Counted from the first letter of the stretch, positions 3,349-26,963 are shown. The stretch is 64,000 nucleotides of DNA from an uncultured bacterium (GCA_964387845.1 CAYLXA010000002.1:32001-96000); one strand, 5' to 3'. Notes: a model not told the origin generated them from the sequence alone. Numbers and translations are program-made.

Positions 3349-4376
3349 GCATTATCAGCTACGGCGAAGCCAATAAACAGGCGCTGACACTGGCGATGGA
3401 ACGCGACCCGAGCGTTTTCTTGATGGGAATCGGTGTAGATGACCACAAGGCCATTTTCGGTAGCGTGCGCGGCATGGTCGAACAGTTCGGCAAAGAGCGT
3501 ATTTTTGATACGCCGATTGCGGAGAGCGGGATGACGGGAATCGCGATTGGCGCCGCGCTAAACGGTATGCGGCCTGTCCATATTCATATCCGCGCCGACT
3601 TTTTATATTTGGCGATGGACCAGCTTTTTAATATTGCAGCGAAGTGGCATGCGATGTTTGGCGGAAAAATGAGCGTTCCGATTGTGATTCGCGCCGTGAT
3701 CGGCCGCAGCTGGGGGCAGGGTGCGCAGCATTCCCAAAGCCCTCAGGCCATGATTGCCCACGTTCCGGGTATTAAATTAGTAATGCCGACCACAGCGTAT
3801 GACGTGAAGGGCTTGCTGCTCAAAGCAATTACCGATCCAAATCCGGTGGTGATGATTGAACATCGCCTGCTTTACGACATTAAAGGAGAGGTGCCGGATG
3901 GTTATTATGAAATTCCATTCGGAAAGGGTGTTGTAAGACGAACCGGAAAGGATGTTACGATTGTCGCAACTTCCTATATGGTTGTTGAGGCATTGAAAGC
4001 TGCCGAATTTTTAACGAATCAGGGAATTGAGGTCGAGATCATTGACCCGCTTACACTGGTTCCGCTGGATGAAGAATTGATTCTGCGATCAGTTCAAAAA
4101 ACCGGCAGAATGCTGGTTGCGGATACCGGCTGGACCAATTGTGGCGTGAGCGCTGAAATTTCCGCGCGTGTTGCAGATCTCGGTTTTTCGTCACTCAAAG
4201 GCCCGATTCGCCGGCTCGGCATGGCGCCCACTGCTTGTCCGGTCAGCAAAGCCCTTGAAAACGCCTTTTATCCAAACGCTAAAACGATTGTCCAGCAAGT
4301 TTGCGAAATGTTGGGCGAGGCGGTTCCAAATGTAGAAGTCCCGCTTTTGGAAAGCAAATTCAAAGGGCCGTTTTAA
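3345..4376 (+). CDS. E1 component beta subunit (transketolase-like)
   Basis: 343-aa ORF. Overlaps the alpha gene by 4 nt, suggesting translational coupling. Transketolase-like Pyr and C-terminal domains characteristic of E1 beta. Confidence 0.8.
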   Translation: MSIISYGEANKQALTLAMERDPSVFLMGIGVDDHKAIFGSVRGMVEQFGKERIFDTPIAESGMTGIAIGAALNGMRPVHIHIRADFLYLAMDQLFNIAAKWHAMFGGKMSVPIVIRAVIGRSWGQGAQHSQSPQAMIAHVPGIKLVMPTTAYDVKGLLLKAITDPNPVVMIEHRLLYDIKGEVPDGYYEIPFGKGVVRRTGKDVTIVATSYMVVEALKAAEFLTNQGIEVEIIDPLTLVPLDEELILRSVQKTGRMLVADTGWTNCGVSAEISARVADLGFSSLKGPIRRLGMAPTACPVSKALENAFYPNAKTIVQQVCEMLGEAVPNVEVPLLESKFKGPF

Positions 4377-5560
4377 TGATTAAATATCATTTAGCTAAAG
4401 ACACAATTGATGAAAAAGATATTCAGGCACTGATTGAGTGGCTTAAATCCTACCCACGGCTCACGAAAGCAAATCTCACGCTTCAATTTGAAGAGCGGTG
4501 GAGCAAATGGCTTGGAAAGAAATATTCAACCTTCTGCAATTCCGGCTCATCCGCAAATTTGTTGATGTATTACGCGCTGCTAAGTTCCAAAAAGCTTAAA
4601 AATAAAAAAGTCGTCGTACCGACTGTTGGATGGGTGACCACCATTGCGCCTGCCATTCAATTCGGCTTTGAGCCGATCATGTGTGAAGCTGATCCCGACA
4701 CTTTTGGCCTTGATTTGGGTCATCTGGAAAAACTTCTCAAGAAGCACAATCCCGGCACGGTAGTGTTGGTACAGGTGCTCGGCGTTCCTCATAAAATGGA
4801 CGAAATTTTGGCGCTTAAGAAAAAATACGACTTCTATTTGTTGGAAGATGCCTGCGCTTCAATCGGTTCCACATATCACGGTAAAAAAATTGGGCAGTTC
4901 GGTGATATGGCAAGCTTTTCGTTCTATTTTGGACATCAAATGTCAACCATCGAAGGCGGTATGGTATCGACGGACAATAAAGAGTTTCAGGATTTATTAT
5001 TGATGCTTCGAAGCCATGGCTGGAGCAAGGATTTAGACGCAAAGACTCATGATGCGCTCGTTGAGCAATATAAAATTGATGACTTTCATACGCCCTTTGT
5101 TTTTTATGAGCCGGGGTTCAATTTGCGCTCAACCGACCTCAACGCATTTCTGGGGCTTCGGCAATTGGACAAGCTCGATTGGATGATTTCGCGGCGTGAT
5201 GAAAATCATAAGCTCTATTATAAACTCTTGGCAAATCAGTTTTACGCTCAGAAATATGCGGATCCAAAAGCAAATGTTTCAAGTATCTCATTTGGTGCTT
5301 TGGCCGCTGATCCGGAAGAGCGGCGCAAGGTCGTGAAGGCTTTGGTGCAGAACGGGATTGAAACCCGGATTTTTTCGGCAGGAAATCTAGGTTTGCATCC
5401 GTTTTGGTATAACCGATACGGAAAAGCGAGCTTTCCGGTTGCCGATAAAGTACACCATTGCGGATTTTTCCTTCCAAATCATCCGTCGCTTGCGACGAAA
5501 GATGTTGAATTTGTGGCGCAGGTAACCTTGGATGCGGTATGCACGGGAAAATCCTCGTAA
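4376..5560 (+). CDS. DegT/ColD/E1-family PMP-dependent sugar 3-dehydratase, with His replacing the catalytic Lys
   Basis: DegT-fold ORF. The ATG at 4376 overlaps the upstream TAA (TAATG); the track's longer start at 4301 is unlikely. The conserved SFYFGHQMSTIEGG segment has His where aminotransferases carry the Schiff-base Lys. The 394-aa size matches ColD-type dehydratases. Confidence 0.65.
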   Translation: MIKYHLAKDTIDEKDIQALIEWLKSYPRLTKANLTLQFEERWSKWLGKKYSTFCNSGSSANLLMYYALLSSKKLKNKKVVVPTVGWVTTIAPAIQFGFEPIMCEADPDTFGLDLGHLEKLLKKHNPGTVVLVQVLGVPHKMDEILALKKKYDFYLLEDACASIGSTYHGKKIGQFGDMASFSFYFGHQMSTIEGGMVSTDNKEFQDLLLMLRSHGWSKDLDAKTHDALVEQYKIDDFHTPFVFYEPGFNLRSTDLNAFLGLRQLDKLDWMISRRDENHKLYYKLLANQFYAQKYADPKANVSSISFGALAADPEERRKVVKALVQNGIETRIFSAGNLGLHPFWYNRYGKASFPVADKVHHCGFFLPNHPSLATKDVEFVAQVTLDAVCTGKSS

Positions 5561-6468
5561 CCGGCGGCACAGGTCTTTTGGGATCAGCGCTTCAAAAGCA
5601 GTGTCCGGATGCGGTTTATGTTGGAAGTAAAGATTATGACTTGAGACGGTTTGATGAGGCTGAGAGGATGTTTGGCGAAATAAAACCAACCCGCGTGATT
5701 CATCTTGCGGCCAATGTGGGTGGGGTGAAGAAAAACGCGGAGCAAAATGCCACACTTTTCTCGGACAATGTTTTAATCAACACCAATGTGATTGAGGCTG
5801 CAATTCAAGGCGGTGTTAAGCGGTTGATTTCAATTTTATCCAGCTGTTGTTTTAAAATTTATCCGGACAAGCCGTCAACAGAGAGCGATTTGCATGAAGG
5901 TGCGCCGTTTGCCGGCAATTTGGGCTATGGTTATGCAAAGCGAATGCTGGACATCCATAGCCGCTTAGCGTGGGAGCAGCATCGGCTGCAGTTTTCATCG
6001 ATCACTCCAGCGACAATGTATGGGCTTAACGATAACTGGGATCTAGAAAGCGGACATGTGGTGGCTGCGTTAATCCGCCGGACGTTTATAGCGAAAGAAA
6101 GGGGCGAGCCGTTGACTGTTTGGGGAAGTGGAAATGCTGTCCGCCAATTTGTCTTAGCAGATGATGTCGCGAGGCTGCTTTTAGAGGAGATTGATACGTT
6201 TGATGGCCCCGACAATATGATCGTAGCACCGGATTCGGGTGTCTCGATACGCGATTTAACAAGCATGATCGCGGAGCTGATGAATTTTAAAGGAGAAATT
6301 ATTTTTGACCAGTCGAAACCGGAGGGACAATTAAAGAGAGTGTTGATCAGTGAGAAATTTAAAAAGCGGTATCCCGAATTTAGCTTTACACCGCTTCGCA
6401 GCGGCTTAAAAATGACCATTGATTGGTTTCTCAAAAACTATAAAACAGCAAGGGTTTTGAAGGTGTGA
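5539..6468 (+). CDS. GDP-L-fucose synthase-like 3,5-epimerase/4-reductase (SDR)
   Basis: LVTGGTGLLGSAL Rossmann motif. SSCCFKIYP and GYGYAK motifs parallel Fcl SSCIYP / YAIAK. Confidence 0.7.
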   Translation: MHGKILVTGGTGLLGSALQKQCPDAVYVGSKDYDLRRFDEAERMFGEIKPTRVIHLAANVGGVKKNAEQNATLFSDNVLINTNVIEAAIQGGVKRLISILSSCCFKIYPDKPSTESDLHEGAPFAGNLGYGYAKRMLDIHSRLAWEQHRLQFSSITPATMYGLNDNWDLESGHVVAALIRRTFIAKERGEPLTVWGSGNAVRQFVLADDVARLLLEEIDTFDGPDNMIVAPDSGVSIRDLTSMIAELMNFKGEIIFDQSKPEGQLKRVLISEKFKKRYPEFSFTPLRSGLKMTIDWFLKNYKTARVLKV

Positions 6469-6469
6469 C

Positions 6470-7516
6470 ATGATTATTAGCCGAACCCCTTTTCGTGTTT
6501 CTTTTTTAGGCGGCGGAACCGATTACCCCGGTTGGTACCGTGAGCATGGCGGAGCCGTGTTGGCGACAACCATTGATAAGTACTGCTATATTACTTGCCG
6601 CTATCTACCCCCATTTTTTGAGCATAAAAGCCGCATCATGTATTCCAAAATCGAGTGCGTTCAGTCCAATAAAGACATCGAACATCCCTCTGTGCGGGAA
6701 ACTTTGAAATATATGAATATCCAAGAGGGGATTGAGATTCATCACGACGGCGATTTGCCTGCCCGCGCCGGTTTGGGATCAAGCTCTGCTTTTACAGTGG
6801 GATTATTGAACGCGCTTTATGGCCTTAAGCGTAAAATGTCGTCTAAAGAAGATTTGGCAAAGGAAGCGATTCATGTGGAAAGAGATCTCCTGAGCGAGAA
6901 TGTGGGATCTCAAGATCAGGTACAGTCGTCGTTTGGCGGTTTGAATCACATTGAATTCCTCAAAAACGGACAATTTAACGTTTTTCCGATTGTTTTGAAG
7001 CATGAGCGCCTTCAAAGTTTTCAAGATCATCTTTTGCTGTATTTTACGGGTTTCTCGCGTTTTGCTTCAGACATTGCAAAAGAGCAAATTGATTCGATTG
7101 CGAAAAAACAAAATGAGCTTAAAGCGATGGGGCAAATGGTTGGTGAAGGCCTCAAGATTCTTACGGGTGACGCAAGCTTGTTGGAATTTGGAAAATTGCT
7201 GCATGAAAGCTGGACATTGAAGCGGAATTTGACTAACCGGATTTCAACACCTGCCATTGATCAAATTTATGAAGAAGCGCGGAGGGCAGGCGCCGTGGGC
7301 GGAAAGCTGCTCGGGGCCGGCGGGGGCGGTTTCGTTCTTTTGCTGGTTGAGCCCGGTAAACAGCAAAAAGTAAAGGATGTGCTGCAAAAATTATTGCTGG
7401 TCCCGTTTCAATTCGAAAACACGGGAACGCAGGTTGTTTTTTACCGCCCTCCCAAGGAAAGTACCGAAATGAGTTGGTTTAAGTTCCAAAAGGAGCGGGA
7501 AGCTTCGCAAAAGTGA
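6470..7516 (+). CDS. GHMP-family sugar kinase, D-glycero-D-manno-heptose 7-phosphate kinase (HddA)-like
   Basis: N-terminus PFRVSFLGGGTDYP plus GHMP ATP-binding motif GLGSSSA. The C-terminal GGKLLGAGGGGF segment is HddA/fucokinase-like. Confidence 0.7.
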   Translation: MIISRTPFRVSFLGGGTDYPGWYREHGGAVLATTIDKYCYITCRYLPPFFEHKSRIMYSKIECVQSNKDIEHPSVRETLKYMNIQEGIEIHHDGDLPARAGLGSSSAFTVGLLNALYGLKRKMSSKEDLAKEAIHVERDLLSENVGSQDQVQSSFGGLNHIEFLKNGQFNVFPIVLKHERLQSFQDHLLLYFTGFSRFASDIAKEQIDSIAKKQNELKAMGQMVGEGLKILTGDASLLEFGKLLHESWTLKRNLTNRISTPAIDQIYEEARRAGAVGGKLLGAGGGGFVLLLVEPGKQQKVKDVLQKLLLVPFQFENTGTQVVFYRPPKESTEMSWFKFQKEREASQK

Positions 7517-8238
7517 ACAAACGCCTGACCGATCCAGCACACATTGACGTGTTAATTATTTGCGGAGGGCTGGGGACGCGCCTCCGTTCTGTCGAGCCCG
7601 ATGCGCCCAAAGGCATGGTTGTTATTGAAGGAAAACCGTTTCTTGAAATTCTGATTGATCATTTGCGTCATTCCGGTTTTCGGCGTTTTATTCTCTGCAC
7701 CGGTTACGGCGCCAAACGTTTTCGGCAGCATTTTGAAGCGGCCAAACAGTCAGAAATTATATTTTCCGAAGAAGTAAAGCCGCTGGGCACGGCCGGAGCT
7801 GTCAAGCAAGCCGAAAAACTCATAAGCAGCGATCAGCAGTTGGTGTTAAATGGCGATTCTTTGTGCTTGGCGGATTGGCAGGAGCTATTACGCTTTCATG
7901 CATCGCATCAGGGGTTGGCAACGCTTTTGGTAACTCAGGACCGAGAGCGAACGGATGTGGGCGGAATCAAGTTTGATCACAACTTCGGCGTAACGCAATT
8001 TAAAGAAAAGGAAAAAGAATCGACCCCATATATTAATGCGGGTATTTATATTTTTGAGCGCCGGTTATTGGAATTGATTCCGAAAAATCAAAAAATTTCT
8101 TTGGAGGAACAAATTTTTCCAAAGCTGAACGAAACCCAACTGTTTGCTTGCGTATCATTAGCAACTGTGTATGATATTGGAACGCCCGAACGTTTAGAGA
8201 AATTTAAACAACTTTATTCTGCAGGAAAATTCAATTAA
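7513..8238 (+). CDS. sugar-phosphate nucleotidyltransferase, heptose-1-P guanylyltransferase (HddC)-like
   Basis: GTG start. LIICGGLGTRLRS…PK motif of NDP-sugar pyrophosphorylases. Overlaps the kinase by 4 nt. Confidence 0.7.
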   Translation: MNKRLTDPAHIDVLIICGGLGTRLRSVEPDAPKGMVVIEGKPFLEILIDHLRHSGFRRFILCTGYGAKRFRQHFEAAKQSEIIFSEEVKPLGTAGAVKQAEKLISSDQQLVLNGDSLCLADWQELLRFHASHQGLATLLVTQDRERTDVGGIKFDHNFGVTQFKEKEKESTPYINAGIYIFERRLLELIPKNQKISLEEQIFPKLNETQLFACVSLATVYDIGTPERLEKFKQLYSAGKFN

Positions 8239-8243
8239 ACGAT

Positions 8244-9794
8244 ATGGTTAATACAAAAAATAAACTTGATGTCTTGCTCATTAATCCTGGCAATTTGATC
8301 CAGGTTTACCAAACGCTGGGACTCAATATTTCTGCTATCGAGCCGCCGGTTTGGTCCGGGTTGATGGCCACTTTCGTTCGGCGCAAAGGCTGTTCCGTTC
8401 AAATTCTGGATGCTAACGCCGAGAATCTGACCCCTGCTCAAACTGCGCAAAAAGCGCTTGAGTTGAAGCCGCTTCTGATCGCTGTTGTTGTTTACGGACA
8501 TCAACCGTCGGCTTCGACGCAAATTATGCCGGCGGCAAGTTCAATTTGCTCCGCGATTAAGGCGCAAGACCCAAGCCAAAAGGTGTTTTTGGTTGGCGGG
8601 CATGTCTCGGCGCTGCCTGATCGGACGCTGAGCGAGGAAAGTGCAGATTTTGTGTCGAGCGGCGAGGGGCCGCACACGCTTTTAGAGTTAATTGAGGCGC
8701 TGAAAGCCGGCGGCTCCGAAAATTTAAAGAAGGTTCGCGGATTACTTTATAAAGAAAACGGGAAAATTCAGTTCAACGCACCGGCACCACTCGTCAAAAA
8801 CTTGGATGAAGAAATGCCTGAAATGGCCTGGGATCTTTTGCCTATGGAAAAATACCGGGCGCACAACTGGCATTGTTTCGGTCATTTAGATAAACGCGCG
8901 CCTTATGCTTCGTTTTATACCACGCTCGGGTGTCCGTATCACTGCACTTTTTGTTGTATTCAGTCGCCTTACAAAACCGGAGAAAAAGAGTCTGGTTTGA
9001 AGGAGGAGATTAACAGCTATCGCTTCTGGAATCCCAAAACGGTTGTCGATCAAATCGGAAAATTAGTCAACGAATACGGAGTCCGCAATATTAAGATCGC
9101 AGACGAGATGTTTGTTCTCAATGCGCGTCATGTATTTGGTATTTGCGATTTGATCATTGAGCGCGGTTATGATTTGAATATTTGGGCGTATGCACGCATT
9201 GACACAATTAAGGACAATATGCTGGACAAATTAAAGCGTGCGGGTGTGAACTGGCTCGCGTTTGGCATCGAGTCGGGTAGCGAGCGTGTCCGAGATAATG
9301 TGGACAAAGCGTTTGACCAAGAGGACATTCGCAAAGTAATTCAAAAAGTGAAAGATGCTGGTATTAACATCATCGGAAATTATATCTTCGGGCTACCGGA
9401 AGATGATATGAATTCAATGAAAGCCACTCTGGATTTAGCGCTCGAACTTAATTGCGAATTTACCAACTTTTATTGCGCGATGGCGTATCCCGGGTCTCCT
9501 TTGTATCAGCAGGCTATCCGTGAAAAATGGGCATTACCAAAAGCCTGGAGCGGTTATTCTCAGCATTCGGTCGATATGCTTCCGCTTGCCACAAAACACC
9601 TCCCGGCTTCTGACGTTATTCGGTTTAGAGACCAGGCATTTGAGGTTTATTTTAAATCACCTAAATATTTAGAGATGGTGCGCCAAAAATTCGGCGAAGA
9701 AACTTTAAAACATATCCAGGCAATGCTTTCACATCAGCTTAAACGACAATTCGTTTCTTCAAGCACGTCAAAAACCTCATCGCAAAAGAGTTGA
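8244..9794 (+). CDS. B12-binding (class B) radical SAM enzyme
   Basis: N-terminal cobalamin-binding Rossmann-like domain. CPYHCTFC gives a CX3CX2C radical SAM motif. 516 aa. Confidence 0.75.
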   Translation: MVNTKNKLDVLLINPGNLIQVYQTLGLNISAIEPPVWSGLMATFVRRKGCSVQILDANAENLTPAQTAQKALELKPLLIAVVVYGHQPSASTQIMPAASSICSAIKAQDPSQKVFLVGGHVSALPDRTLSEESADFVSSGEGPHTLLELIEALKAGGSENLKKVRGLLYKENGKIQFNAPAPLVKNLDEEMPEMAWDLLPMEKYRAHNWHCFGHLDKRAPYASFYTTLGCPYHCTFCCIQSPYKTGEKESGLKEEINSYRFWNPKTVVDQIGKLVNEYGVRNIKIADEMFVLNARHVFGICDLIIERGYDLNIWAYARIDTIKDNMLDKLKRAGVNWLAFGIESGSERVRDNVDKAFDQEDIRKVIQKVKDAGINIIGNYIFGLPEDDMNSMKATLDLALELNCEFTNFYCAMAYPGSPLYQQAIREKWALPKAWSGYSQHSVDMLPLATKHLPASDVIRFRDQAFEVYFKSPKYLEMVRQKFGEETLKHIQAMLSHQLKRQFVSSSTSKTSSQKS

Positions 9795-10978
9795 CTCAGT
9801 CGCGATCAACGCAGAAGCAATGGATAGTTATCGGCGGCGGCATTATTGGCACCGCGGTTGCCCTGGCTCTTGCTAAGCGCAAAGCTGGCTCAATCTTAAT
9901 TCTAGAGAAAGAATCTTCGCTCGGGCTTCATCAAAGCGGTCGCAACAGCGGTGTCATTCATTCCGGGATTAATCAAAAACCCGGAAGTTTGAAAGCAAAA
10001 ATGTGCGTTGAGGGCAGCCGGCGCTTGCGAGAATATTGCAGACAGCGGCGGATTGTGATGAATGAATGTGGGACTTTAGTGATTGCGCGTCATGCCGAAG
10101 AGCTGGCAACCCTAGACCGTCTTTTAAAAATGGGTGTCGAGTGCGGCGTTGAGGGGTTGATGTTAATCGGCCGCGATGAATTGATTGAGCGGGAACCGAT
10201 TGCCAAAGGCGATAGTGCTCTTCTGTCTCCCTCAGGCGCAACCGTTGATTCTGAAATGCTCCTCAAATCTCTTGCGCAAGATGCGCGCGAGGTCGGTGTT
10301 GAGTATAAAATGGTCCATCGCGTTTTAAAAATCGAAGGAAATACGGTCTATACCAACCAAGGGAGTTTCAACGCCGAATACATCATTAATTGTGCGGGGC
10401 TTTATGCAGATGAAATTGCGCATATGATGAACGCAGGGAGAGGTTATCGGATTATTCCATTTCGCGGCGAGTATATGGAAGTCAAAAATTGCGATGTGAA
10501 ATCAATGGTTTATCAGGCTCCTGATCTCCGGTTTCCGTTTTTGAGCATTCATTTAACCCGGGAAACGGACGGAAGAGTGCTTGCCGGGCCTAGCGCAGTT
10601 TTGGCGTTTGGCAGGGAAGCATATGAGAAGGAATGGGATTGGCGTGAAATGGGCCGCATGTTTACTAGTATGCAATTTTTACGGATGGTTATCAGACCAG
10701 AGTTTGTGCAGCTAGCTTCCGAGAATTTGAAAACATCGCTATCAGCAAATAGTTTTTTGGAGCAGATTCAGTCTCTGGTTGCAGGTGTAACGCAAGAACA
10801 GATTGTGCCGCATCGGGCCGGAATCCGAGCTCAGATGGTGGATCAAAGCGGTAAATTGGTTGATGATATTTTGGTGGAACATCAACCGTCGGCAACGCAT
10901 GTGCTGAATGCAGTATCTCCCGGAATGACGTGCAGTCTGGCATTTGCAGACTATTTAGCGGGGCAAATTTTAAATTAG
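9791..10978 (+). CDS. FAD-dependent oxidoreductase (L-2-hydroxyglutarate oxidase LhgO-like)
   Basis: TTG start overlapping the previous stop. The WIVIGGGIIGTAVA dinucleotide-binding motif immediately follows. LhgO/DAO-family architecture. Confidence 0.7.
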   Translation: MTQSRSTQKQWIVIGGGIIGTAVALALAKRKAGSILILEKESSLGLHQSGRNSGVIHSGINQKPGSLKAKMCVEGSRRLREYCRQRRIVMNECGTLVIARHAEELATLDRLLKMGVECGVEGLMLIGRDELIEREPIAKGDSALLSPSGATVDSEMLLKSLAQDAREVGVEYKMVHRVLKIEGNTVYTNQGSFNAEYIINCAGLYADEIAHMMNAGRGYRIIPFRGEYMEVKNCDVKSMVYQAPDLRFPFLSIHLTRETDGRVLAGPSAVLAFGREAYEKEWDWREMGRMFTSMQFLRMVIRPEFVQLASENLKTSLSANSFLEQIQSLVAGVTQEQIVPHRAGIRAQMVDQSGKLVDDILVEHQPSATHVLNAVSPGMTCSLAFADYLAGQILN

Positions 10979-11002
10979 TGAGATAGTTAACGAGTGGCTT
11001 GT

Positions 11003-11968
11003 ATGAAAAAAATTTTAATCTGCGGCGGAACTGGTTTTATCGGCAGGAATTTGGTTGAGTATTTTGTCAAAAAACCAGATTTTGAAGTTTACGCAACTTG
11101 TTACAAGCGTCGTTCTCCCTTAATTCCAAAGGCTAAATTTAAGCGTATTGATTTAACAAATGTTGTGCAAGTTCAAGAAATTGTGAAGGGGATGGATGTT
11201 GTGGTTCAAGCCGCTGCCACAACCTCCGGCGTAAAGGATACGATTGAGGCGCCTTATGTGCACGTTACAGATAACGCCGTAATGAACTCCTTGATTTTTC
11301 GAGCGTGTTTCGAGCAAAAGGTGAAACACGTGATCTTTTTAAGCTGTACCGTGATGTATCCGAATCAGGAGGCGCCAGTTTCGGAAGAAGATATGAATTA
11401 TCAAATTACGGATAATTATTTTGGTGTCGGTTGGACAAAAGTTTACCTCGAGAAAATGAGCCAATTTTATTCGCGAATCGGAAGTGCTAAATATACCGCG
11501 ATTCGGCATTCCAATATTTACGGCCCTTATGATAAGTATGATCTTGAAAAATCACACGTTTTTGGCGCAACGGTTGCGAAAGTTGAAACTGCCAAGGACG
11601 GCAAAGTTGTGGTCTGGGGCACGGGCGCCCAAGAGCGCGATCTTTTATATGTGGATGACCTGTCCCGGTTTATTGATTTGGCAATTGAAAAGCAAACTGA
11701 AAAGTTTGAGCTGGTTAATGTTGGTTACGGAAAAAGCATTTCAATTGCTAATCTGGTCCAGTTGATTATTGACCGCTCCAAAAAGAATTTAAAGATTGAG
11801 TATGATCATTTAAAGCCTTCGGTTAACTTCAAGTTGGTTCTGAATATCGACCGCGCAAAGCGCATTTTTGGCTGGGAGCCGCAGGTGCCGCTTGAAGAAG
11901 GAATTGAAAGGAGTCTTGCGTGGTATCGAAAACATATTCAACCAATGTCTGCCGAAAAGATTAAATGA
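11003..11968 (+). CDS. NAD-dependent epimerase/reductase (second Fcl-like SDR)
   Basis: ICGGTGFIGRNL motif. An LSCTVMYP segment lies where Fcl has SSCIYP. The alternative start is 10994. Confidence 0.7.
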   Translation: MKKILICGGTGFIGRNLVEYFVKKPDFEVYATCYKRRSPLIPKAKFKRIDLTNVVQVQEIVKGMDVVVQAAATTSGVKDTIEAPYVHVTDNAVMNSLIFRACFEQKVKHVIFLSCTVMYPNQEAPVSEEDMNYQITDNYFGVGWTKVYLEKMSQFYSRIGSAKYTAIRHSNIYGPYDKYDLEKSHVFGATVAKVETAKDGKVVVWGTGAQERDLLYVDDLSRFIDLAIEKQTEKFELVNVGYGKSISIANLVQLIIDRSKKNLKIEYDHLKPSVNFKLVLNIDRAKRIFGWEPQVPLEEGIERSLAWYRKHIQPMSAEKIK

Positions 11969-14019
11969 AAAGCAAATTAATTTGCGCTGCCGTATTAGTG
12001 GCGCTGATTGTGATTTCATTTTACACCTACCGCTCCGGTGTCATTTCCGTGCCTCGCTCCGATCACTATGGGTTTATGGCGGAGAGGGAATACGCAGTTT
12101 CGGATACCGAGTTTTTGTTGAAGCAGTTGGTCTATAACCGGACCCGCGTCATCGCAAAGGGTGATTCTTTTTTGTTCAGGCCCGGAATGACCGGCACGCT
12201 CGCGCTTTTGGATATTTTTTTTCGGCATAATTTGTATGCGCTTGGCGCTTTCAGTATCCTCGCGCATGCTTTGACGGCTTTTTCATTGTTCTTATTGCTG
12301 AGTTTGTTTTTAAGGCGCTCTTTTGCGTTTATCCTATCCGTTGTATTTGCCACGCATCTGGCAGGTTTTGAAATGGTTTTTTGGCGCCATATCAGTCCTT
12401 ACATGTTTTGCCTGGTTTTTGTAGGATTGGCATTGTACGCGCTTGGCCGCTGGCTTCAGCCGCCCGAAAATCGAAATTGGCTTTTATTATTTTCATTCTG
12501 CCTTTTTTTATCTTCACTATTTCACGAAGTTGTTTTGCCGGCGATGGTTATCTTCTGTCTTTTATTTTTAGTTCTGCATTTTCAAAATCAATCAACGAAT
12601 CCATCTTATTTTAAATCATTGTCAATCGCGTGCCTGGTCCCGCTGGCTGCTAATTTGCTGCTCAACGTCGCTGGCCGGATCGCTTTTAGCAGCCAGGCCA
12701 ACCTGTTATTGAGTGATGCGGCGCAACCGGCAAGCGTTGCTTACGCCTCAAAATTTTTAAGCCACGCGGTTTACGTCGGGGGCCTGATTATCACTGCCTT
12801 TTTGGCGCCGAGCATCATTCGTTTCTCATTTATTAATTTGGATTTTCGGGCGGAGTGGGACTTTCTCAAAATTCCAGCGCCTGTTTTTTACACCGCCGGT
12901 TTTATTTTTCTTACATTGATCGCAGGGGCGTTAATTTATCTATATATTTTCAGAAAAAAGCTCGGTCAGCGACAGCTTTTTCCGATTTTTGCATTCGCGG
13001 GAATATTTTTGATTGTCACTTTTTTGGGACTAACGGTCGGGAGGGCCATTCCGCGCTCAATCGGTTATTTGAAAAACTCCACCTATTATTTCTATCTAAC
13101 CAATTACGCCCTTACAATCATCGTTGCTATGGGCTTGAGAAAAATCAGCAGCTTACCGTATAAAAATTTAAAAATCGGATTAGTGTTTTTCCTGCTCTGT
13201 GTTGCCGGTTATCAGATTAAAAGCGGTATTGCGGGAATCGAAAAGGCAATCAATGCTCGAGGTGATTACGATAAACAAATCGCTTCCAAAACACTCCGGG
13301 TTTGGTCAGAATTAAGCAAGCATCCGGAATATTGCTATGGTGGGACCGGGGCCGAAAGAGTTTCAAGCTTTGTGCCCAATGTTCTGCTGTACCGAAGGTC
13401 ATGCAATGCTTTCCCGGACAAAATCCCGCTCTATTTGCTCGAAAACGAAAAACGCGAACTTTGGTTTATGCAGTTGATTCCTGAGCAGATTGATCAGCAG
13501 GCCTATCGTTATGGGCAGATCAATAATGAGGGGCAAGCCGAGTTTTCCGCTCAATCAACCGATAACCAGCTCAGTTTTAGCGGTTTTTCTCTTAGCAATG
13601 CCGTCCATCATCCTATTTATTACGGCGCCCGGCTTCATGGGGGATTTGTCGGAGGTTTGGTATTTAACTATCACGACCCCGCCAATTTTTCAATCTTAGT
13701 GGCAAATGAACGTTACACTTATGTGCAATTTAACGAGAATGGAAACCCCTCGGAACCGTCGTATGTGGCGCAGCAGATTTTAGATCCGATCGCTTTTGAT
13801 TTGTCGATTCGGAGAATCGGCGGCAGGTATGTTGTATTCTATAACCGGACTTTGCTTGCAGTGATCAATGATGCTGTTTCCGAGGGACGAGTGGGGCTTT
13901 ATCGGAAGCCCCGTCATTCAGCAGGCGAGTATTTTACCGACGTGGTCTTGATTGATGCTTCAGAGGCCAAACAATCGCAGATGGGTGCTTTTGAACCTGT
14001 TTTTCAATTTCAATTTTAG
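11965..14019 (+). CDS. large polytopic membrane protein with a ~250-aa C-terminal soluble beta-rich domain (GT-C-like?)
   Basis: 684 aa. About 10 predicted TM segments in the first ~430 aa, then a hydrophilic C-terminal domain. 4-nt overlap with the upstream gene. Confidence 0.6.
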   Translation: MKSKLICAAVLVALIVISFYTYRSGVISVPRSDHYGFMAEREYAVSDTEFLLKQLVYNRTRVIAKGDSFLFRPGMTGTLALLDIFFRHNLYALGAFSILAHALTAFSLFLLLSLFLRRSFAFILSVVFATHLAGFEMVFWRHISPYMFCLVFVGLALYALGRWLQPPENRNWLLLFSFCLFLSSLFHEVVLPAMVIFCLLFLVLHFQNQSTNPSYFKSLSIACLVPLAANLLLNVAGRIAFSSQANLLLSDAAQPASVAYASKFLSHAVYVGGLIITAFLAPSIIRFSFINLDFRAEWDFLKIPAPVFYTAGFIFLTLIAGALIYLYIFRKKLGQRQLFPIFAFAGIFLIVTFLGLTVGRAIPRSIGYLKNSTYYFYLTNYALTIIVAMGLRKISSLPYKNLKIGLVFFLLCVAGYQIKSGIAGIEKAINARGDYDKQIASKTLRVWSELSKHPEYCYGGTGAERVSSFVPNVLLYRRSCNAFPDKIPLYLLENEKRELWFMQLIPEQIDQQAYRYGQINNEGQAEFSAQSTDNQLSFSGFSLSNAVHHPIYYGARLHGGFVGGLVFNYHDPANFSILVANERYTYVQFNENGNPSEPSYVAQQILDPIAFDLSIRRIGGRYVVFYNRTLLAVINDAVSEGRVGLYRKPRHSAGEYFTDVVLIDASEAKQSQMGAFEPVFQFQF

Positions 14020-14043
14020 TTATGCGGTAGTGAGGTGTGTGTG

Positions 14044-15963
14044 ATGATTTTGTTTCCGGTTTTATTATTTGCGGCTTTGGTTCTGATTTTAAACGGCCAT
14101 CCGCAATTTCGAGTCAATGAACGCGATGATTGGCGTTATCAAACGGGTCTTGCATTTGTTGTGACGGGCGTCATCGCGGTTGCTGCGATTGAAGTGTTGA
14201 GCGTTTTTTCTGCGCTTACACAAAAAACCGTTGGCGTGACATGGGGAGCGCTGCTGTGCGTTGCTCTGTCTGTTTGGTTTTTTGGTTATCGAAAAACTCA
14301 GATCCTGCCTTCGATTTCCGGTTTTTCAGGTTTATTCTTAGGGCTTTTGTCCGGGATTTTTTTCCTCGTAATTATTACGAGCGTTGTTGCTCTTTTGGCT
14401 CCGCCCAATACATGGGATTCGCTGACGTATCACATGAGCCGGGTCGCGCATTGGGTCCAAAATAGAAGTGTCGGACACTATCCAACCAACATTTTAAGGC
14501 AATTGTATCATGCGCCAGGAGCCGAATTTATGATCTTGCAAGCCCAGCTCTTGAGCGGAGGCGACCGCTTTGCCAATATGATTCAATGGAGTTTTTATAT
14601 CGGCTGTGTTCTCACCAGTTCTTTGCTGACAAAGCAATTTGGATTTGACCGGTGGGCACAGCTGCTGACCGCGGTTTTTGCGTCAACGCTCCCGATGGCG
14701 ATTTTACAGGCTTCAAGCACGCAAAACGATCTGGCAGCCTCGTTCTGGCTTCTTGCAGCAGTTGTGTTTCTTCTGAGGCTGCAGAATCAATTTAATTGGA
14801 CAGATGCGTGCGGTGCCGGTGCCGGTATTGGGCTTGCGTTTCTGACAAAATCACTATCCTATGTTTACATTATTCCGTTCATAGCGTGGTTTGCTTGGGC
14901 TTGCGTCAGAAACAGGCAGTGGGGAAAGTTGTCAAAAACTGCGGCGTTAATTGCTGCGCTGGTTATCGTGATTAATCTGGGCCACTGGTCGCGCAATTTC
15001 GTACTTTTCCATCATCCGCTAGGGCCAATAAAAACAATAGATTTAACCAACGAGAAATTCGGCGTCCGGCCCGTGTTGTCTAACATAATTCGGGGCGCTG
15101 CCTCGCACGCGAGCTTTCCGATCATTGGTATTAACCACGAGCTGACCAAATGGATTTATGCGTTCCACCGTTCGCTTGGCATGGATGCCAATGATCCGAA
15201 GACAACCTATGATCCTAATTTTGGAAAATTTCAAATCCGTCCGCTTCACGCCCATGAAGATTCAGCGAGCAACCCCATTCATTTTTGGCTGATTGTGATT
15301 TGCGGGATTATTGCGCTGCGCAGGCGCGAGACTCGAAAAGAGCCAAAATTTATATTTTATCTTGCATCGGTCATTGCTGCCTTCCTGCTAATTTGCATTA
15401 TTTTCAAGTGGCAAGTGTGGATCAGCCGTTTGCAGCTGCCTCTTTTCTTTTTTTGGGCACCTGTGGCGGGTTCAGTGCTGTCTTTGATGAAAGCAAAAAG
15501 CGTATCTGGCGCAGTTGCCGTTTTTTTGCTGGTCAGCTCACTTTATTCAGCTTTCTTTAATTTTTCTCGGAGTTTTTTTAAGTGGCCTTTTGTTGACAAT
15601 ATGCCGCCCACTGTTTTTGAAGCAGGACGTGACATGCTGTATATGAATAACGGGGCTAACATTGTGAAGCTTTCATATTTACTTGCAACAAAACATATTG
15701 AATCGAAGCGCTATAAGAATGTCGGACTTATTGTTCATGAGGATGACTGGGAATATCCGTACTGGGCGATACTGCAAGCCAATCGGAATGCGATCCGGAT
15801 TGAACATATAGAAGTGGCGAATATATCGAGTAAAATAAAAAGAAAGCCTTTTCGGCCGGATGTTGTTATTGCATCAAAGCCAACGGATGGGCAAATCCGA
15901 CGCTATGAAGCCGAGTATGGTTCCGGCGAACAGATGGGAATTTTGTGGGTTTTTGGCCGGTAG
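14044..15963 (+). CDS. polytopic GT-C-type membrane glycosyltransferase (ArnT/PMT-like)
   Basis: ATG at 14044 preceded by GAGGTG. Many TM helices. Early loop PPNTWDSLTYHMSRVAHW resembles the GT-C acidic loop. Soluble C-terminal ~150 aa. Confidence 0.6.
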   Translation: MILFPVLLFAALVLILNGHPQFRVNERDDWRYQTGLAFVVTGVIAVAAIEVLSVFSALTQKTVGVTWGALLCVALSVWFFGYRKTQILPSISGFSGLFLGLLSGIFFLVIITSVVALLAPPNTWDSLTYHMSRVAHWVQNRSVGHYPTNILRQLYHAPGAEFMILQAQLLSGGDRFANMIQWSFYIGCVLTSSLLTKQFGFDRWAQLLTAVFASTLPMAILQASSTQNDLAASFWLLAAVVFLLRLQNQFNWTDACGAGAGIGLAFLTKSLSYVYIIPFIAWFAWACVRNRQWGKLSKTAALIAALVIVINLGHWSRNFVLFHHPLGPIKTIDLTNEKFGVRPVLSNIIRGAASHASFPIIGINHELTKWIYAFHRSLGMDANDPKTTYDPNFGKFQIRPLHAHEDSASNPIHFWLIVICGIIALRRRETRKEPKFIFYLASVIAAFLLICIIFKWQVWISRLQLPLFFFWAPVAGSVLSLMKAKSVSGAVAVFLLVSSLYSAFFNFSRSFFKWPFVDNMPPTVFEAGRDMLYMNNGANIVKLSYLLATKHIESKRYKNVGLIVHEDDWEYPYWAILQANRNAIRIEHIEVANISSKIKRKPFRPDVVIASKPTDGQIRRYEAEYGSGEQMGILWVFGR

Positions 15964-26956: not shown

Positions 26957-26963
26957 CTAGGGA

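What the first reader, a model, noticed from the sequence alone, without database searches (positions are those of the whole stretch)
8244..10978. B12-binding radical SAM enzyme translationally coupled to an LhgO-like FAD oxidase, embedded in the sugar pathway
Class B radical SAM enzymes in sugar and antibiotic pathways (GenK, Fom3 and similar) methylate unactivated carbons. The rSAM stop is overlapped by a TTG start of an FAD-dependent oxidase. The pair follows directly after HddA/HddC. This suggests C-methylation and/or oxidation of the heptose side chain. It could also be a moonlighting 2-hydroxy-acid oxidase.
Basis: inference. Interest (0 to 1): 0.6.

Follow-up and report, generated by a model that had tools for sequence, protein, structure and literature searches.

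The report
Radical SAM and LhgO in heptose operon
A vitamin-B12-type radical enzyme and a flavin enzyme do sit back-to-back in a sugar-making operon, but the flavin enzyme most likely recycles a waste acid (L-2-hydroxyglutarate) made by another enzyme in the operon, while the radical enzyme belongs to a large, uncharacterised family that tailors a seven-carbon sugar in many bacterial phyla.

Summary
ORF 8244-9794 is a B12-binding radical SAM (rSAM) protein. ORF 9791-10978 is an LhgO-family flavoenzyme whose TTG start overlaps the rSAM stop. Both lie in a 13-gene, one-strand nucleotide-heptose operon.

The rSAM belongs to a very conserved (60-68% identity), unnamed family found in at least 553 species. 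It travels with a Cj1427-like GDP-heptose C4-dehydrogenase, a ColD-type 3-dehydratase (His at the Lys position in 73/74 loci), a ThDP E1αβ pair and HddA/HddC-like enzymes. It is therefore a genuine sugar-pathway enzyme. Methylation is unproven: its nearest named families (HpnJ, BchE) are ring-forming enzymes.

The flavoenzyme passes the curated LhgO model and keeps all six L-2-hydroxyglutarate-binding residues. Cj1427 is known to turn α-ketoglutarate into L-2-hydroxyglutarate. LhgO genes have joined such clusters repeatedly, at varying positions and orientations, including once next to a Cj1427-like gene with no rSAM nearby. So it most likely recycles this by-product rather than oxidising the sugar.

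The rSAM–LhgO adjacency is lineage-specific, and 4-nt overlaps are the operon's general style. Interest is moderate to high: an uncharacterised, widespread sugar pathway plus a new by-product-recycling logic.

The parts
691..1395 (+). GT2 glycosyltransferase, AglJ/ArnC-like. Probably a polyprenyl-phosphate sugar synthase that loads the finished sugar onto a lipid carrier.
   Evidence: Pfam Glycos_transf_2. NCBIfam best matches are AglJ, dolichyl-phosphate hexose transferase and ArnC, all below cutoff. Homologues of 51-78% identity occur in 25/84 rSAM loci.
1420..2355 (+). SDR1: orthologue of C. jejuni Cj1427, the GDP-D-glycero-α-D-manno-heptose C4-dehydrogenase that uses α-ketoglutarate as oxidant and releases L-2-hydroxyglutarate.
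   Evidence: PDB 6vo6/6vo8: E = 1.2e-114, 386 bits, full length; 55.2% identity over 308 aa. The 6vo6 chain falls in a C. jejuni 313-aa cluster. Chemistry is from PMC10680097. Present in 54/84 rSAM loci.
2356..3348 (+). ThDP-dependent E1 α subunit (PDH/acetoin-dehydrogenase type). Proposed donor of a two-carbon unit from pyruvate to the keto-sugar.
   Evidence: Pfam E1_dh 250 bits. TIGR03182 329.6 bits, below its cutoff of 393.85. Present in 57/84 loci. Precedent: AviB1/AviB2 (PMC4753412).
3345..4376 (+). ThDP-dependent E1 β subunit.
   Evidence: Pfam Transket_pyr + Transketolase_C. NF006667 316.7 bits, just under its cutoff of 321. Present in 61/84 loci.
4376..5560 (+). ColD-type PLP/PMP-dependent GDP-4-keto-sugar 3-dehydratase (Pfam family DegT). 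The mechanical ORF starts at TTG 4301; the probable start is ATG 4376, overlapping the E1β stop (TAATG).
   Evidence: Best PDB match is ColD/WbdK 2gms, 1.4e-52. His212 (SFYFGHQMST) aligns with ColD His188; the H188N mutant entry 3b8x fixes the position. His at this position in 73/74 loci. Immediate upstream neighbour of the rSAM in 45/83 loci. Start codon.
5539..6468 (+). GDP-L-fucose-synthase-like SDR (epimerase / 4-reductase type).
   Evidence: Human GFS 4e5y, 1.4e-70. NF047922 189 bits, below its cutoff of 500.
6470..7516 (+). HddA-like GHMP sugar kinase (heptose 7-phosphate kinase-like).
   Evidence: Pfam GHMP_kinases_N and _C. NF049969 HddA 144.7 bits, below its cutoff of 600. 53-78% identical homologues in 59/84 loci.
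7513..8238 (+). HddC-like sugar-1-phosphate guanylyltransferase.
   Evidence: Pfam NTP_transferase. NF049965 HddC 129.3 bits, below its cutoff of 300; mannose-1-P guanylyltransferase model 146.6 bits.
8244..9794 (+). B12-binding (class B) radical SAM enzyme of an unnamed, highly conserved family. Core tailoring enzyme of the pathway; reaction unknown.
9791..10978 (+). LhgO / L2HGDH-family FAD enzyme, proposed L-2-hydroxyglutarate → α-ketoglutarate recycler. TTG start overlaps the rSAM stop.
   Evidence: NF008726 359.7 bits against a cutoff of 299. dmL2HGDH 8w75, 2.2e-61. Residues S53, H57, Y241, L251, H254 and R346 correspond to dmL2HGDH S88, H92, Y289, L299, H302 and R393. All six are invariant in the 18-member clade alignment.
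10994..11968 (+). Third SDR epimerase/reductase; specificity unknown.
   Evidence: Pfam Epimerase 145.6 bits. Only generic PDB matches, about 1e-22. 77% and 68% identical copies in L004 and L006.
11965..14019 (+). 684-aa protein with no Pfam domain, conserved in the two closest relatives. Function unknown.
   Evidence: No Pfam family. 54% identity in L004 and 35% in L006.
14035..15963 (+). GT-C-type (PMT_2 / ArnT-like) lipid-carrier-dependent glycosyltransferase. Probably transfers the sugar to its acceptor outside the cytoplasm.
   Evidence: Pfam PMT_2 35.4 bits. A 'phospholipid carrier-dependent glycosyltransferase' lies in the S. magneticus module.

Best explanation
The two genes belong to one operon but do different jobs.

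(1) Pathway up to the branch point. The operon makes a GDP-activated heptose. SDR1, a Cj1427 orthologue, oxidises it at C4 using α-ketoglutarate and releases one L-2-hydroxyglutarate per sugar. The ColD-type enzyme then removes the 3-OH, consuming glutamate and releasing α-ketoglutarate and ammonia, to give GDP-3-deoxy-4-keto-heptose. The E1αβ ThDP pair probably adds a two-carbon unit from pyruvate to the keto-sugar.

(2) The rSAM. It is a core tailoring enzyme of this pathway. It most likely abstracts a hydrogen from an unactivated carbon of the heptose-derived GDP-sugar, either on the C6-C7 side chain or on the new branch. The outcome is not determined. My estimates are methyl transfer about 0.40, C-C ring closure or rearrangement about 0.35, and diol dehydration about 0.15.

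(3) The FAD enzyme. It is a genuine L-2-hydroxyglutarate oxidase/dehydrogenase. It converts the L-2-hydroxyglutarate by-product of SDR1 back to α-ketoglutarate, removing a dead-end metabolite and pulling the C4 oxidation forward.

(4) Export. The finished sugar is passed to a polyprenyl-phosphate carrier (GT2) and transferred outside the cytoplasm by a GT-C enzyme.

Status of each step. Shown here: the gene content, the conservation and the active-site residues. Inferred from characterised homologues: steps 1 and 3. Inference only: the E1αβ step and the rSAM chemistry.
For: LhgO role:
- It passes the curated LhgO equivalog model, 359.7 bits against a cutoff of 299.
- All six 2-OG-binding or catalytic residues of dmL2HGDH are present (PMC10726252) and invariant across its clade.
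- SDR1 is 55% identical over its full length to the C. jejuni protein in PDB 6vo6.
- Cj1427 re-oxidises its bound NADH with α-KG, giving L-2HG (PMC10680097).
- LhgO-model-positive genes (331-614 bits) lie within 10 kb of the module in Verrucomicrobia, cyanobacteria, Nitrospirae, Planctomycetes, Omnitrophota and Myxococcales. Their positions and strands differ.
- In L045 and L068 the LhgO gene is directly upstream of the Cj1427-like gene.
- LhgO is also in the module on S. magneticus RS-1 plasmid pDMC1 and in L168.
- Frequency is 9/47 full-length loci, binomial p < 1e-6 even at a 2% background.
- A Bacillota locus has LhgO, HddA-like kinase and Cj1427-like SDR with no rSAM, E1 or ColD within 10 kb.

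rSAM role:
- Orthologues of 59-68% identity occur in at least 553 species.
- Within 10 kb, of 84 loci: DegT 73, E1β 61, GHMP kinase 59, E1α 57, SDR1 54.
- De novo clustering finds no further conserved partner.
- The immediate upstream neighbour is the His-type dehydratase in 45/83 loci and SDR1 in 11/83.

Other steps:
- ColD-type identity of the DegT protein.
- Cj1427 plus a C3-dehydratase has been shown in vitro to give GDP-3-deoxy-4-keto-heptose (PMC10680097).
- ThDP branching precedents: YerE (PMC9306805) and AviB1/AviB2 (PMC4753412).
Against: - Relatives of the window's own DAO clade at 61-66% identity sit in glycan clusters with no Cj1427-like SDR within 10 kb. Five of nine are near paralogous B12-rSAMs instead. 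The coupling may therefore be to SDRs in general, or to something else.
- Most module loci (about 80%) have no LhgO nearby, so it is dispensable or encoded elsewhere.
- The window's enzyme scores only modestly above the LhgO cutoff (359.7 against 530-614 for canonical members), leaving room for a shifted substrate.
- No biochemical data exist for any member of this rSAM family. Fold and profile searches do not discriminate between reaction types.
- Some loci (Azospirillum lipoferum and about a quarter of full-length loci) lack E1αβ near the rSAM. A. argentinense has a split transketolase instead.
- That PDB 6vo6 is Cj1427 rests partly on my memory. The tools confirm only that it is a 313-aa C. 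jejuni SDR.
Confidence: 0.55

Rival explanations
1. First reader's model. The rSAM is a GenK/Fom3-like cobalamin-dependent C-methyltransferase and the FAD enzyme oxidises the heptose side chain. The two act consecutively on the same GDP-sugar as a coupled pair.
For: - Most characterised class B rSAMs are methylases (general knowledge).
- The genes overlap by 4 nt, and the arrangement is kept in L004 and L006.
- Members of the DAO clade recur near B12-rSAM genes in glycan clusters.
Against: - The FAD enzyme keeps the complete L-2HG/2-OG pocket, including Arg346, the equivalent of the Arg393 that binds the C5-carboxylate in dmL2HGDH, and it passes the LhgO equivalog model.
- LhgO is directly downstream of the rSAM only in the window's lineage.
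- LhgO accompanies a Cj1427-like SDR where no rSAM is present.
- Four-nt overlaps are common in this operon.
- Curated methylase models (PhpK 93 bits, HpnR 63, KedN5 40) score lower than HpnJ and BchE.
Confidence: 0.12
2. The rSAM is a non-methylating radical enzyme. Either it closes a carbocycle between the ThDP-installed acetyl carbon and C7 of the 3-deoxy-heptose, giving a caryose-like 4,8-cyclo-3,9-dideoxy-nonose. Or it acts as an AprD4-like diol dehydratase on the C6-C7 diol. LhgO still recycles L-2HG.
For: - The top curated families are HpnJ (168.6 bits; needed for the cyclitol of BHT cyclitol ether) and BchE (141.5 bits; isocyclic-ring cyclase).
- The top PDB match by sequence and by fold is the sugar diol dehydratase AprD4.
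- Caryose is 3-deoxy, keeps its 6-OH, and has C8(OH)(CH3) bonded to both C4 and C7. That is what a Cj1427-like enzyme, a ColD-like enzyme, ThDP acetylation at C4 and a C7-C8 closure would give. Its biosynthesis is unknown (PMC9092360).
- rSAM carbocycle formers on sugars are precedented: HpnJ, calditol synthase and PtmC.
Against: - All family scores are far below their cutoffs.
- TsrM, MgmA, CysS and TokK (methylases) match the fold about as well.
- Some loci lack E1αβ near the rSAM.
- No link to Burkholderia caryophylli could be tested.
- The role of the Fcl-like 4-reductase is unclear if C4 becomes a tertiary alcohol.
Confidence: 0.3
3. The LhgO gene is an ordinary housekeeping gene that happens to lie in the operon, with no functional link to the sugar pathway.
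For: - Relatives below about 60% identity lie in unrelated contexts.
- About 80% of module loci lack an LhgO within 10 kb.
Against: - Co-location recurs in at least seven phyla, with different LhgO subclades and arrangements.
- p < 1e-6.
- Synteny inside the operon is kept down to 65% DAO identity.
- There is a known biochemical source of L-2HG in the same operon.
Confidence: 0.08
4. The flavoenzyme serves the pathway in another way. It could supply a 2-oxo acid donor for the E1αβ ThDP enzyme, or feed electrons from L-2HG to a pathway component, by analogy with L2HGDH reducing quinone intermediates in the COQ metabolon.
For: - E1αβ needs a 2-oxo acid.
- A 2026 preprint shows L2HGDH acting as a local electron donor in a biosynthetic assembly.
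- The DAO clade recurs near rSAM genes.
Against: - The E1αβ here is the heterodimeric PDH/acetoin type, not the 2-oxoglutarate dehydrogenase type.
- A flavin at about -0.2 V cannot readily reduce an rSAM [4Fe-4S] cluster or cob(II)alamin (general knowledge).
- LhgO occurs with a Cj1427-like SDR where neither E1 nor rSAM is present.
Confidence: 0.05

Closest known systems
Campylobacter jejuni capsular heptose pathway: Cj1427 (MlghA) C4-dehydrogenase and the HS:5 C3-dehydratase
   Same: - SDR1 is 55% identical to the C. jejuni protein in PDB 6vo6.
- The DegT protein is ColD-type with the catalytic His.
- HddA/HddC-like activation genes are present.
- Cj1427 plus a C3-dehydratase gives GDP-3-deoxy-4-keto-heptose in vitro (PMC10680097).
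   Different: - The C. jejuni pathway as described in PMC10680097 uses no rSAM, no E1αβ and no LhgO; it continues with cupin epimerases and C4-reductases.
- Here the product goes to a lipid carrier and a GT-C transferase rather than into a capsule polymer.
LhgO (E. coli YgaF) / L2HGDH (Drosophila, PDB 8w75)
   Same: Passes the NF008726 equivalog cutoff. The FAD motif and all six substrate or catalytic residues are conserved.
   Different: - It is embedded in a glycan operon, not a carbon-starvation or central-metabolism context.
- Its score is modest (359.7 bits), so it is a divergent subclade.
- The in-vivo electron acceptor is unknown.
SerA-D2HGDH coupling in Pseudomonas (from my own knowledge, not checked here): a dehydrogenase that reduces α-KG to D-2HG is pulled forward by a dedicated 2HG dehydrogenase
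   Same: The same logic: α-KG acts as a sacrificial oxidant and a flavoenzyme regenerates it from 2-hydroxyglutarate.
   Different: - Opposite enantiomer and an unrelated flavoenzyme fold.
- Amino-acid rather than nucleotide-sugar biosynthesis.
- Here the link is written into operon structure.
HpnJ (TIGR03471) and BchE (TIGR02026), class B rSAM ring-forming enzymes
   Same: They are the best-scoring curated families. Domain order is the same (B12-binding then rSAM). HpnJ acts on a sugar moiety.
   Different: Scores are 168.6 and 141.5 bits against cutoffs of 577.6 and 481. The genomic context differs completely, so the window protein is not a member of either.
AprD4 (PDB 6fd2), radical SAM 1,2-diol dehydratase of apramycin biosynthesis
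   Same: Best solved-structure match by sequence (1.4e-15) and by fold (3.3e-21, TM 0.66-0.74). It acts on a sugar.
   Different: 19% identity. NF033070 scores 77 bits against a cutoff of 500. As far as I recall, AprD4 does not use cobalamin and works with a partner reductase, AprD3.
YerE and AviB1/AviB2: ThDP-dependent two-carbon branching of NDP-3-deoxy-4-keto sugars (yersiniose, eurekanate, paulomycose)
   Same: A 3-deoxy-4-keto nucleotide sugar and a ThDP enzyme occur in one cluster. AviB1/B2 is, like E1αβ here, a two-protein complex using pyruvate.
   Different: - The substrate would be a GDP-heptose, not a CDP- or TDP-hexose.
- An rSAM is an added, conserved partner.
- The E1αβ function here is inferred only.
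GenK / Fom3-type cobalamin-dependent rSAM C-methyltransferases
   Same: Class B architecture. GenK methylates a sugar side-chain carbon.
   Different: There is no specific sequence affinity. Curated methylase models score lower than HpnJ and BchE. Methyl transfer was not tested.

Membership tests
Class B (B12-binding domain) radical SAM superfamily | CxxxCxxC [4Fe-4S]/SAM motif in a radical SAM core domain | tested here: met
   C230, C234 and C237 in GCPYHCTFCC, invariant in 18 homologues. PF04055 67.2 bits against 29.5.
Class B (B12-binding domain) radical SAM superfamily | N-terminal Rossmann-like B12-binding domain | tested here: met
   PF02310 51.6 bits against 32.1, residues 25-149. The AF2 model matches TsrM, OxsB, TokK and CysS over its full length.
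Class B (B12-binding domain) radical SAM superfamily | Actually binds and uses cobalamin | not testable with these tools
   As far as I recall, AprD4, the best structural match, has the domain but does not use cobalamin. Sequence alone cannot decide.
HpnJ (TIGR03471) | Score at or above the curated cutoff (577.6 bits) and a hopanoid gene context | tested here: not met
   168.6 bits. The context is a nucleotide-sugar operon in most of 84 loci.
BchE (TIGR02026) | Score at or above the curated cutoff (481.35 bits) and a bacteriochlorophyll context | tested here: not met
   141.5 bits. No photosynthesis genes in the window.
AprD4 diol dehydratase (NF033070) | Score at or above the curated cutoff (500 bits) | tested here: not met
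   77.2 bits. 19% identity in the structural alignment.
Cobalamin-dependent rSAM C-/P-methyltransferases (PhpK, HpnR, KedN5, TsrM, MCR-Gln methylase models) | Membership of a curated methylase model | tested here: not met
   PhpK 93 bits against 600; MCR-Gln methylase 90.2 against 360; HpnR 63.2 against 650; TsrM 45.5 against 500; KedN5 40.2 against 700.
Cobalamin-dependent rSAM C-/P-methyltransferases (PhpK, HpnR, KedN5, TsrM, MCR-Gln methylase models) | Methyl transfer from methylcobalamin to substrate (SAH plus 5'-dA formed; +14 Da product) | not testable with these tools
   Needs anaerobic reconstitution.
LhgO / L2HGDH (NF008726) | Score at or above the curated equivalog cutoff (299 bits) | tested here: met
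   359.7 bits over 379 of 389 model positions.
LhgO / L2HGDH (NF008726) | Substrate-binding and catalytic residues Ser88, His92, Tyr289, Leu299, His302 and Arg393 (dmL2HGDH numbering) | tested here: met
   Window S53, H57, Y241, L251, H254 and R346. All invariant in the 18-member clade alignment.
LhgO / L2HGDH (NF008726) | N-terminal GxGxxG FAD-binding motif | tested here: met
   IGGGIIG at residues 14-20.
LhgO / L2HGDH (NF008726) | Oxidises L-2-hydroxyglutarate to 2-oxoglutarate | not testable with these tools
   Needs an enzyme assay.
Cj1427-type GDP-heptose C4-dehydrogenase (for SDR1, 1420-2355) | Full-length close homology to the characterised enzyme | tested here: met
   386 bits, E = 1.2e-114, 55.2% identity over 308 aa to 6vo6. 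6vo6 belongs to a C. jejuni cluster.
Cj1427-type GDP-heptose C4-dehydrogenase (for SDR1, 1420-2355) | Tightly bound NADH re-oxidised by α-ketoglutarate (ping-pong), releasing L-2HG | not testable with these tools
   The property is documented for Cj1427 only (PMC10680097).
ColD-type 3-dehydratase (for the DegT protein, 4376-5560) | His in place of the Schiff-base Lys of aminotransferases | tested here: met
   His212 aligns with ColD His188. His in 73/74 related loci.

The most novel reading that the evidence does not exclude
The conserved module (Cj1427-like C4-dehydrogenase, ColD-like 3-dehydratase, E1αβ ThDP enzyme and this B12-rSAM) would be the unknown biosynthetic route to caryose-type carbocyclic higher sugars. 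ThDP chemistry would put an acetyl group on C4 of GDP-3-deoxy-4-keto-heptose, and the rSAM would close a five-membered carbocycle by joining C7 to the acetyl carbonyl. Such sugars would then be widespread envelope components in more than 15 phyla rather than a curiosity of Burkholderia caryophylli. The embedded LhgO would separately show that α-KG → L-2HG is the physiological redox couple of Cj1427-type enzymes.
Probability: 0.15. Interest if true: 0.85.

Novelty: new variant of a known kind. Interest (0 to 1): 0.62.

Why it matters
1. A radical SAM family that is 60-68% identical across at least 553 species and more than 15 phyla has no curated model and no characterised member. It sits at the heart of an undescribed heptose-derived sugar pathway that ends on a lipid carrier. 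Solving it would define a widespread cell-envelope sugar, and possibly the unknown route to carbocyclic or branched higher sugars.

2. LhgO has been recruited repeatedly next to Cj1427-type dehydrogenases. This is independent genomic evidence that their unusual use of α-ketoglutarate as oxidant is physiological. It also shows a by-product-recycling logic written into glycan operons: L-2HG is made stoichiometrically and must be removed.

3. Practically, it warns against reading a class B rSAM as a methylase, or an adjacent flavoenzyme as a sugar oxidase, from domain content alone.

4. Cultured carriers are available for experiments: S. magneticus RS-1 plasmid pDMC1 and the Azospirillum plasmids.

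Tried and rejected
- PDB sequence search and a Foldseek search of an AF2 model of the rSAM (pLDDT 78). AprD4, TsrM, MgmA, OxsB, CysS and TokK all match similarly, so there is no discrimination between methylase and non-methylase.
- Literature searches for rSAM plus heptose plus cobalamin, and for LhgO plus heptose or polysaccharide clusters, found nothing relevant.
- Attempts to read the primary Cj1427 papers (PMC7509852, PMC7500870, PMC8240034) and to find the PDB code 6VO6 in held text failed. I spent the last large protein search confirming only that 6vo6 is a C. jejuni 313-aa SDR.
- I looked for GmhA and GmhB in the window and found none.
- I asked whether LhgO presence correlates with SDR1 presence among rSAM loci. 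It does not discriminate: by my count from the table, about 8 of 10 DAO-containing full-length loci carry SDR1, against a baseline of roughly three quarters of all full-length loci.
- The reciprocal scan from the DAO clade did not support exclusive coupling to Cj1427. It revealed other glycan contexts that I could not explain.
- I rejected LhgO as a reductant for the rSAM on redox grounds.
- I rejected 2-oxoglutarate as the E1αβ substrate because the E1 is the PDH/acetoin heterodimeric type.
- I did not identify the source organism. Its closest relatives over the whole module are Omnitrophota, Elusimicrobiota and Nitrospirae MAGs.

Full report
OBSERVATION

The window carries a run of closely packed same-strand ORFs from 691 to about 17,000.

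ORF 8244-9794 (516 aa) has a B12-binding domain and a radical SAM domain. Its cluster cysteines are C230, C234 and C237.

ORF 9791-10978 (395 aa) is a DAO-family flavoprotein. It scores 359.7 bits on the curated L-2-hydroxyglutarate oxidase equivalog model, whose cutoff is 299.

The junction reads gTTGAc. The TTG start shares two bases with the TGA stop, and no other canonical start precedes the GGGIIG motif. The same AGTTGA junction is present in the closest relative, L004. A more distant relative, L006, has a 46-nt gap and an ATG start.

Four junctions in this operon show the same 4-nt overlap. The overlap is therefore operon style, not a mark of a special partnership.

THE OPERON

In order, the genes are:
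- An AglJ/ArnC-like GT2.
- SDR1.
- E1α and E1β (ThDP-dependent).
- A DegT-family protein.
- A GDP-fucose-synthase-like SDR.
- An HddA-like GHMP kinase.
- An HddC-like nucleotidyltransferase.
- The rSAM.
- The flavoenzyme.
- A third SDR.
- A 684-aa protein with no Pfam domain.
- A GT-C (PMT_2) transferase.

SDR1 matches PDB 6vo6/6vo8 over its full length (E = 1.2e-114, 55% identity). That chain belongs to a 313-aa Campylobacter jejuni cluster. From my own knowledge, 6vo6 is Cj1427.

The DegT protein is best matched by ColD. It has His212 where ColD has catalytic His188 and where aminotransferases have Lys. Its likely start is ATG 4376, not the mechanical TTG 4301.

The rest of the window is ordinary chromosome of a diderm bacterium: ArgRS, MiaA, HflX, RpoN, AccD and LptD.

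THE rSAM FAMILY

No curated family claims the protein. Scores are HpnJ 168.6 bits against a cutoff of 577.6, BchE 141.5 against 481, methylase models at or below 93, and AprD4 77.

It nevertheless has thousands of homologues. The top 120 are all 64-83% identical and come from unrelated phyla. A scan of species-representative genomes found at least 553 carriers at 59-68% identity. These include Omnitrophota, Planctomycetota, Verrucomicrobiota, Nitrospirota, Acidobacteriota, Chloroflexota, Cyanobacteria, Myxococcota, Elusimicrobiota and the archaeon Methanoperedens.

Cultured carriers exist: three Azospirillum plasmids and S. magneticus RS-1 pDMC1.

Across 84 loci the rSAM lies within 10 kb of these partners:
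- DegT protein: 73.
- E1β: 61.
- HddA-like kinase: 59.
- E1α: 57.
- Cj1427-like SDR: 54.

The DegT partner has His at the critical position in 73 of 74 loci. It is the rSAM's immediate upstream neighbour in 45 of 83 loci, and the Cj1427-like SDR is in 11.

De novo clustering of all ORFs in these loci finds no further conserved partner.

GmhA and GmhB accompany the module in a minority of loci. Together with the Cj1427 orthologue, this fixes the substrate class as GDP-heptose.

PATHWAY INFERENCE

Cj1427 oxidises GDP-D-glycero-α-D-manno-heptose at C4. Its tightly bound NADH is re-oxidised by α-ketoglutarate, which gives L-2-hydroxyglutarate. Cj1427 plus a ColD-like C3-dehydratase yields GDP-3-deoxy-4-keto-heptose in vitro, and the dehydratase consumes glutamate and releases α-KG and ammonia (PMC10680097).

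NDP-3-deoxy-4-keto sugars are the classical acceptors for ThDP-dependent two-carbon branching. YerE does this in yersiniose biosynthesis (PMC9306805), and the two-protein AviB1/AviB2 complex is proposed to do it in avilamycin biosynthesis (PMC4753412).

I therefore place E1αβ after the dehydratase, and the rSAM on a heptose-derived GDP-sugar. This placement is inference.

The reaction type cannot be decided here:
- The fold search puts AprD4 (sugar diol dehydratase), TsrM, MgmA, OxsB, CysS and TokK at similar scores.
- The two best curated families, HpnJ and BchE, are ring-forming enzymes, not methylases (HpnJ role in PMC9092360).

My estimates are methylation about 0.40, cyclisation or rearrangement about 0.35, and dehydration about 0.15.

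THE FLAVOENZYME

Three lines of evidence point to L-2HG as its substrate.

(i) It passes the LhgO equivalog model.

(ii) All six residues that bind 2-oxoglutarate or catalyse the reaction in Drosophila L2HGDH are present. Ser88, His92, Tyr289, Leu299, His302 and Arg393 (PMC10726252) correspond to S53, H57, Y241, L251, H254 and R346. All six are invariant across its clade.

(iii) The operon encodes a known stoichiometric source of L-2HG.

Comparative data add a fourth line. LhgO-model-positive genes (331-614 bits) lie at the edges of the module in at least six further phyla, on either strand, and twice directly upstream of the Cj1427-like gene. One lies in the S. magneticus plasmid module and another in L168.

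The frequency is 9 of 47 full-length loci, with p < 1e-6 under a generous background.

The key discriminating case came from Cj1427-family members chosen without regard to the rSAM. A Bacillota locus reads LhgO, HddA-like kinase, Cj1427-like SDR, with no rSAM, E1 or ColD within 10 kb. LhgO therefore tracks the dehydrogenase, not the rSAM.

The net chemistry closes a cycle:
- SDR1 consumes α-KG and makes L-2HG.
- The ColD-like enzyme returns α-KG from glutamate.
- LhgO salvages the L-2HG.

WHAT DOES NOT FIT

Relatives of the window's own flavoenzyme clade at 61-66% identity sit in other glycan operons without a Cj1427-like gene in reach. Several are near paralogous B12-rSAMs. One recurrent operon is rSAM paralogue, GalE/dehydratase-like SDR, MT-GT2 fusion, LhgO.

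Either other SDRs there also use α-KG, or this subclade has a broader role. I could not resolve this, and it keeps my confidence at about 0.55-0.6 for the recycling model.

Most module loci have no LhgO nearby.

E1αβ is absent near the rSAM in about a quarter of full-length loci, and it is replaced by a split transketolase in A. argentinense.

COMPARISON AND NOVELTY

The first two sugar steps follow the C. jejuni heptose pathway. The flavoenzyme is a member of the LhgO family by every sequence test available. The rSAM is a class B rSAM but fails every named-family test.

Three things are new:
- The family itself.
- The conserved combination of rSAM, ColD-type dehydratase, Cj1427-type dehydrogenase and ThDP enzyme, feeding a lipid-carrier/GT-C route.
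- The embedding of an L-2HG recycler in glycan operons.

Nothing in the searchable literature describes any of these.

The most novel reading still open is that the module makes caryose-type carbocyclic nonoses, whose biosynthesis is unknown. The predicted chemistry (6-OH kept, 3-deoxy, C2 unit on C4, C7-C8 closure) reproduces the caryose skeleton exactly. This is only a structural argument.

VERDICT

The pair is real but is not a two-step sugar-tailoring couple. Interest is 0.62.

Noticed in passing
window 4301-4378: The mechanical ORF for the DegT/ColD-like gene starts at TTG 4301, 76 nt inside the E1β gene. Alignment to ColD begins at residue 26 (MIKYHL). The real start is probably ATG 4376, overlapping the E1β stop (TAATG).
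   Followed up: yes
window 17777-21001: A 1074-aa protein combines a spermidine/spermine-synthase domain (residues about 553-712) with C-terminal TPR repeats. It lies inside the glycan island between two GT2 genes, which is an unusual fusion for a polysaccharide cluster.
   Followed up: no
window 25802-28415 (-) and 35411-36532 (+): An Orn/DAP/Arg-decarboxylase-fold gene sits next to a saccharopine-dehydrogenase-fold gene, which looks like a carboxy(nor)spermidine dehydrogenase/decarboxylase pair. A deoxyhypusine-synthase-like gene lies 7 kb away. With the spermidine-synthase fusion above, polyamine genes cluster around the glycan island.
   Followed up: no
window 21974-25812: An asparagine-synthase (AsnB)-type amidotransferase (21974-23875, +) converges on a second GT-C/PMT-type transferase on the opposite strand (23872-25812, -). 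AsnB homologues also appear in other LhgO-containing glycan clusters (L089).
   Followed up: partly
window 11965-14019: A 684-aa ORF with no Pfam match overlaps the SDR3 stop by 4 nt. It is conserved in L004 (54%) and L006 (35%) but absent from other rSAM loci. It is possibly a lineage-specific membrane protein of the pathway.
   Followed up: partly
L035, L036, L051 (Planctomycetia / Omnitrophota loci): These loci carry one or two further B12-rSAM paralogues (23-28% identity) and extra Lys-type DegT aminotransferases beside the core module. This suggests larger, multi-rSAM sugar-tailoring clusters.
   Followed up: no
L174 (Azospirillum argentinense Az39 plasmid p5), locus 9138-12822: Divergent from the rSAM, Cj1427-like SDR and kinase genes are a split transketolase (N- and C-terminal halves), a 'cobalamin-dependent protein' (an rSAM paralogue, 23% identity) and a SAM methyltransferase. 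The ThDP partner type varies between lineages.
   Followed up: partly
L088 5907-11167 (and the L099 / L131 type): A recurrent operon reads B12-rSAM paralogue, 357-aa GalE/dehydratase-like SDR, methyltransferase-GT2 fusion, LhgO-clade flavoenzyme. It has no Cj1427-like gene. The reason for an LhgO there is unexplained.
   Followed up: partly
L003, L175, L176, L177 flanks: Glycan clusters carrying the module are repeatedly interrupted or flanked by toxin-antitoxin and defence-type genes (HEPN/NTP_transf_2 pairs, HicAB, AbiEii, DruA) and by IS elements. This is consistent with mobile, variable surface-glycan islands.
   Followed up: no
window 41208-44095: Two tandem GGDEF diguanylate cyclase genes, the first with a GAF domain, lie downstream of an ABC ATPase.
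   Followed up: no
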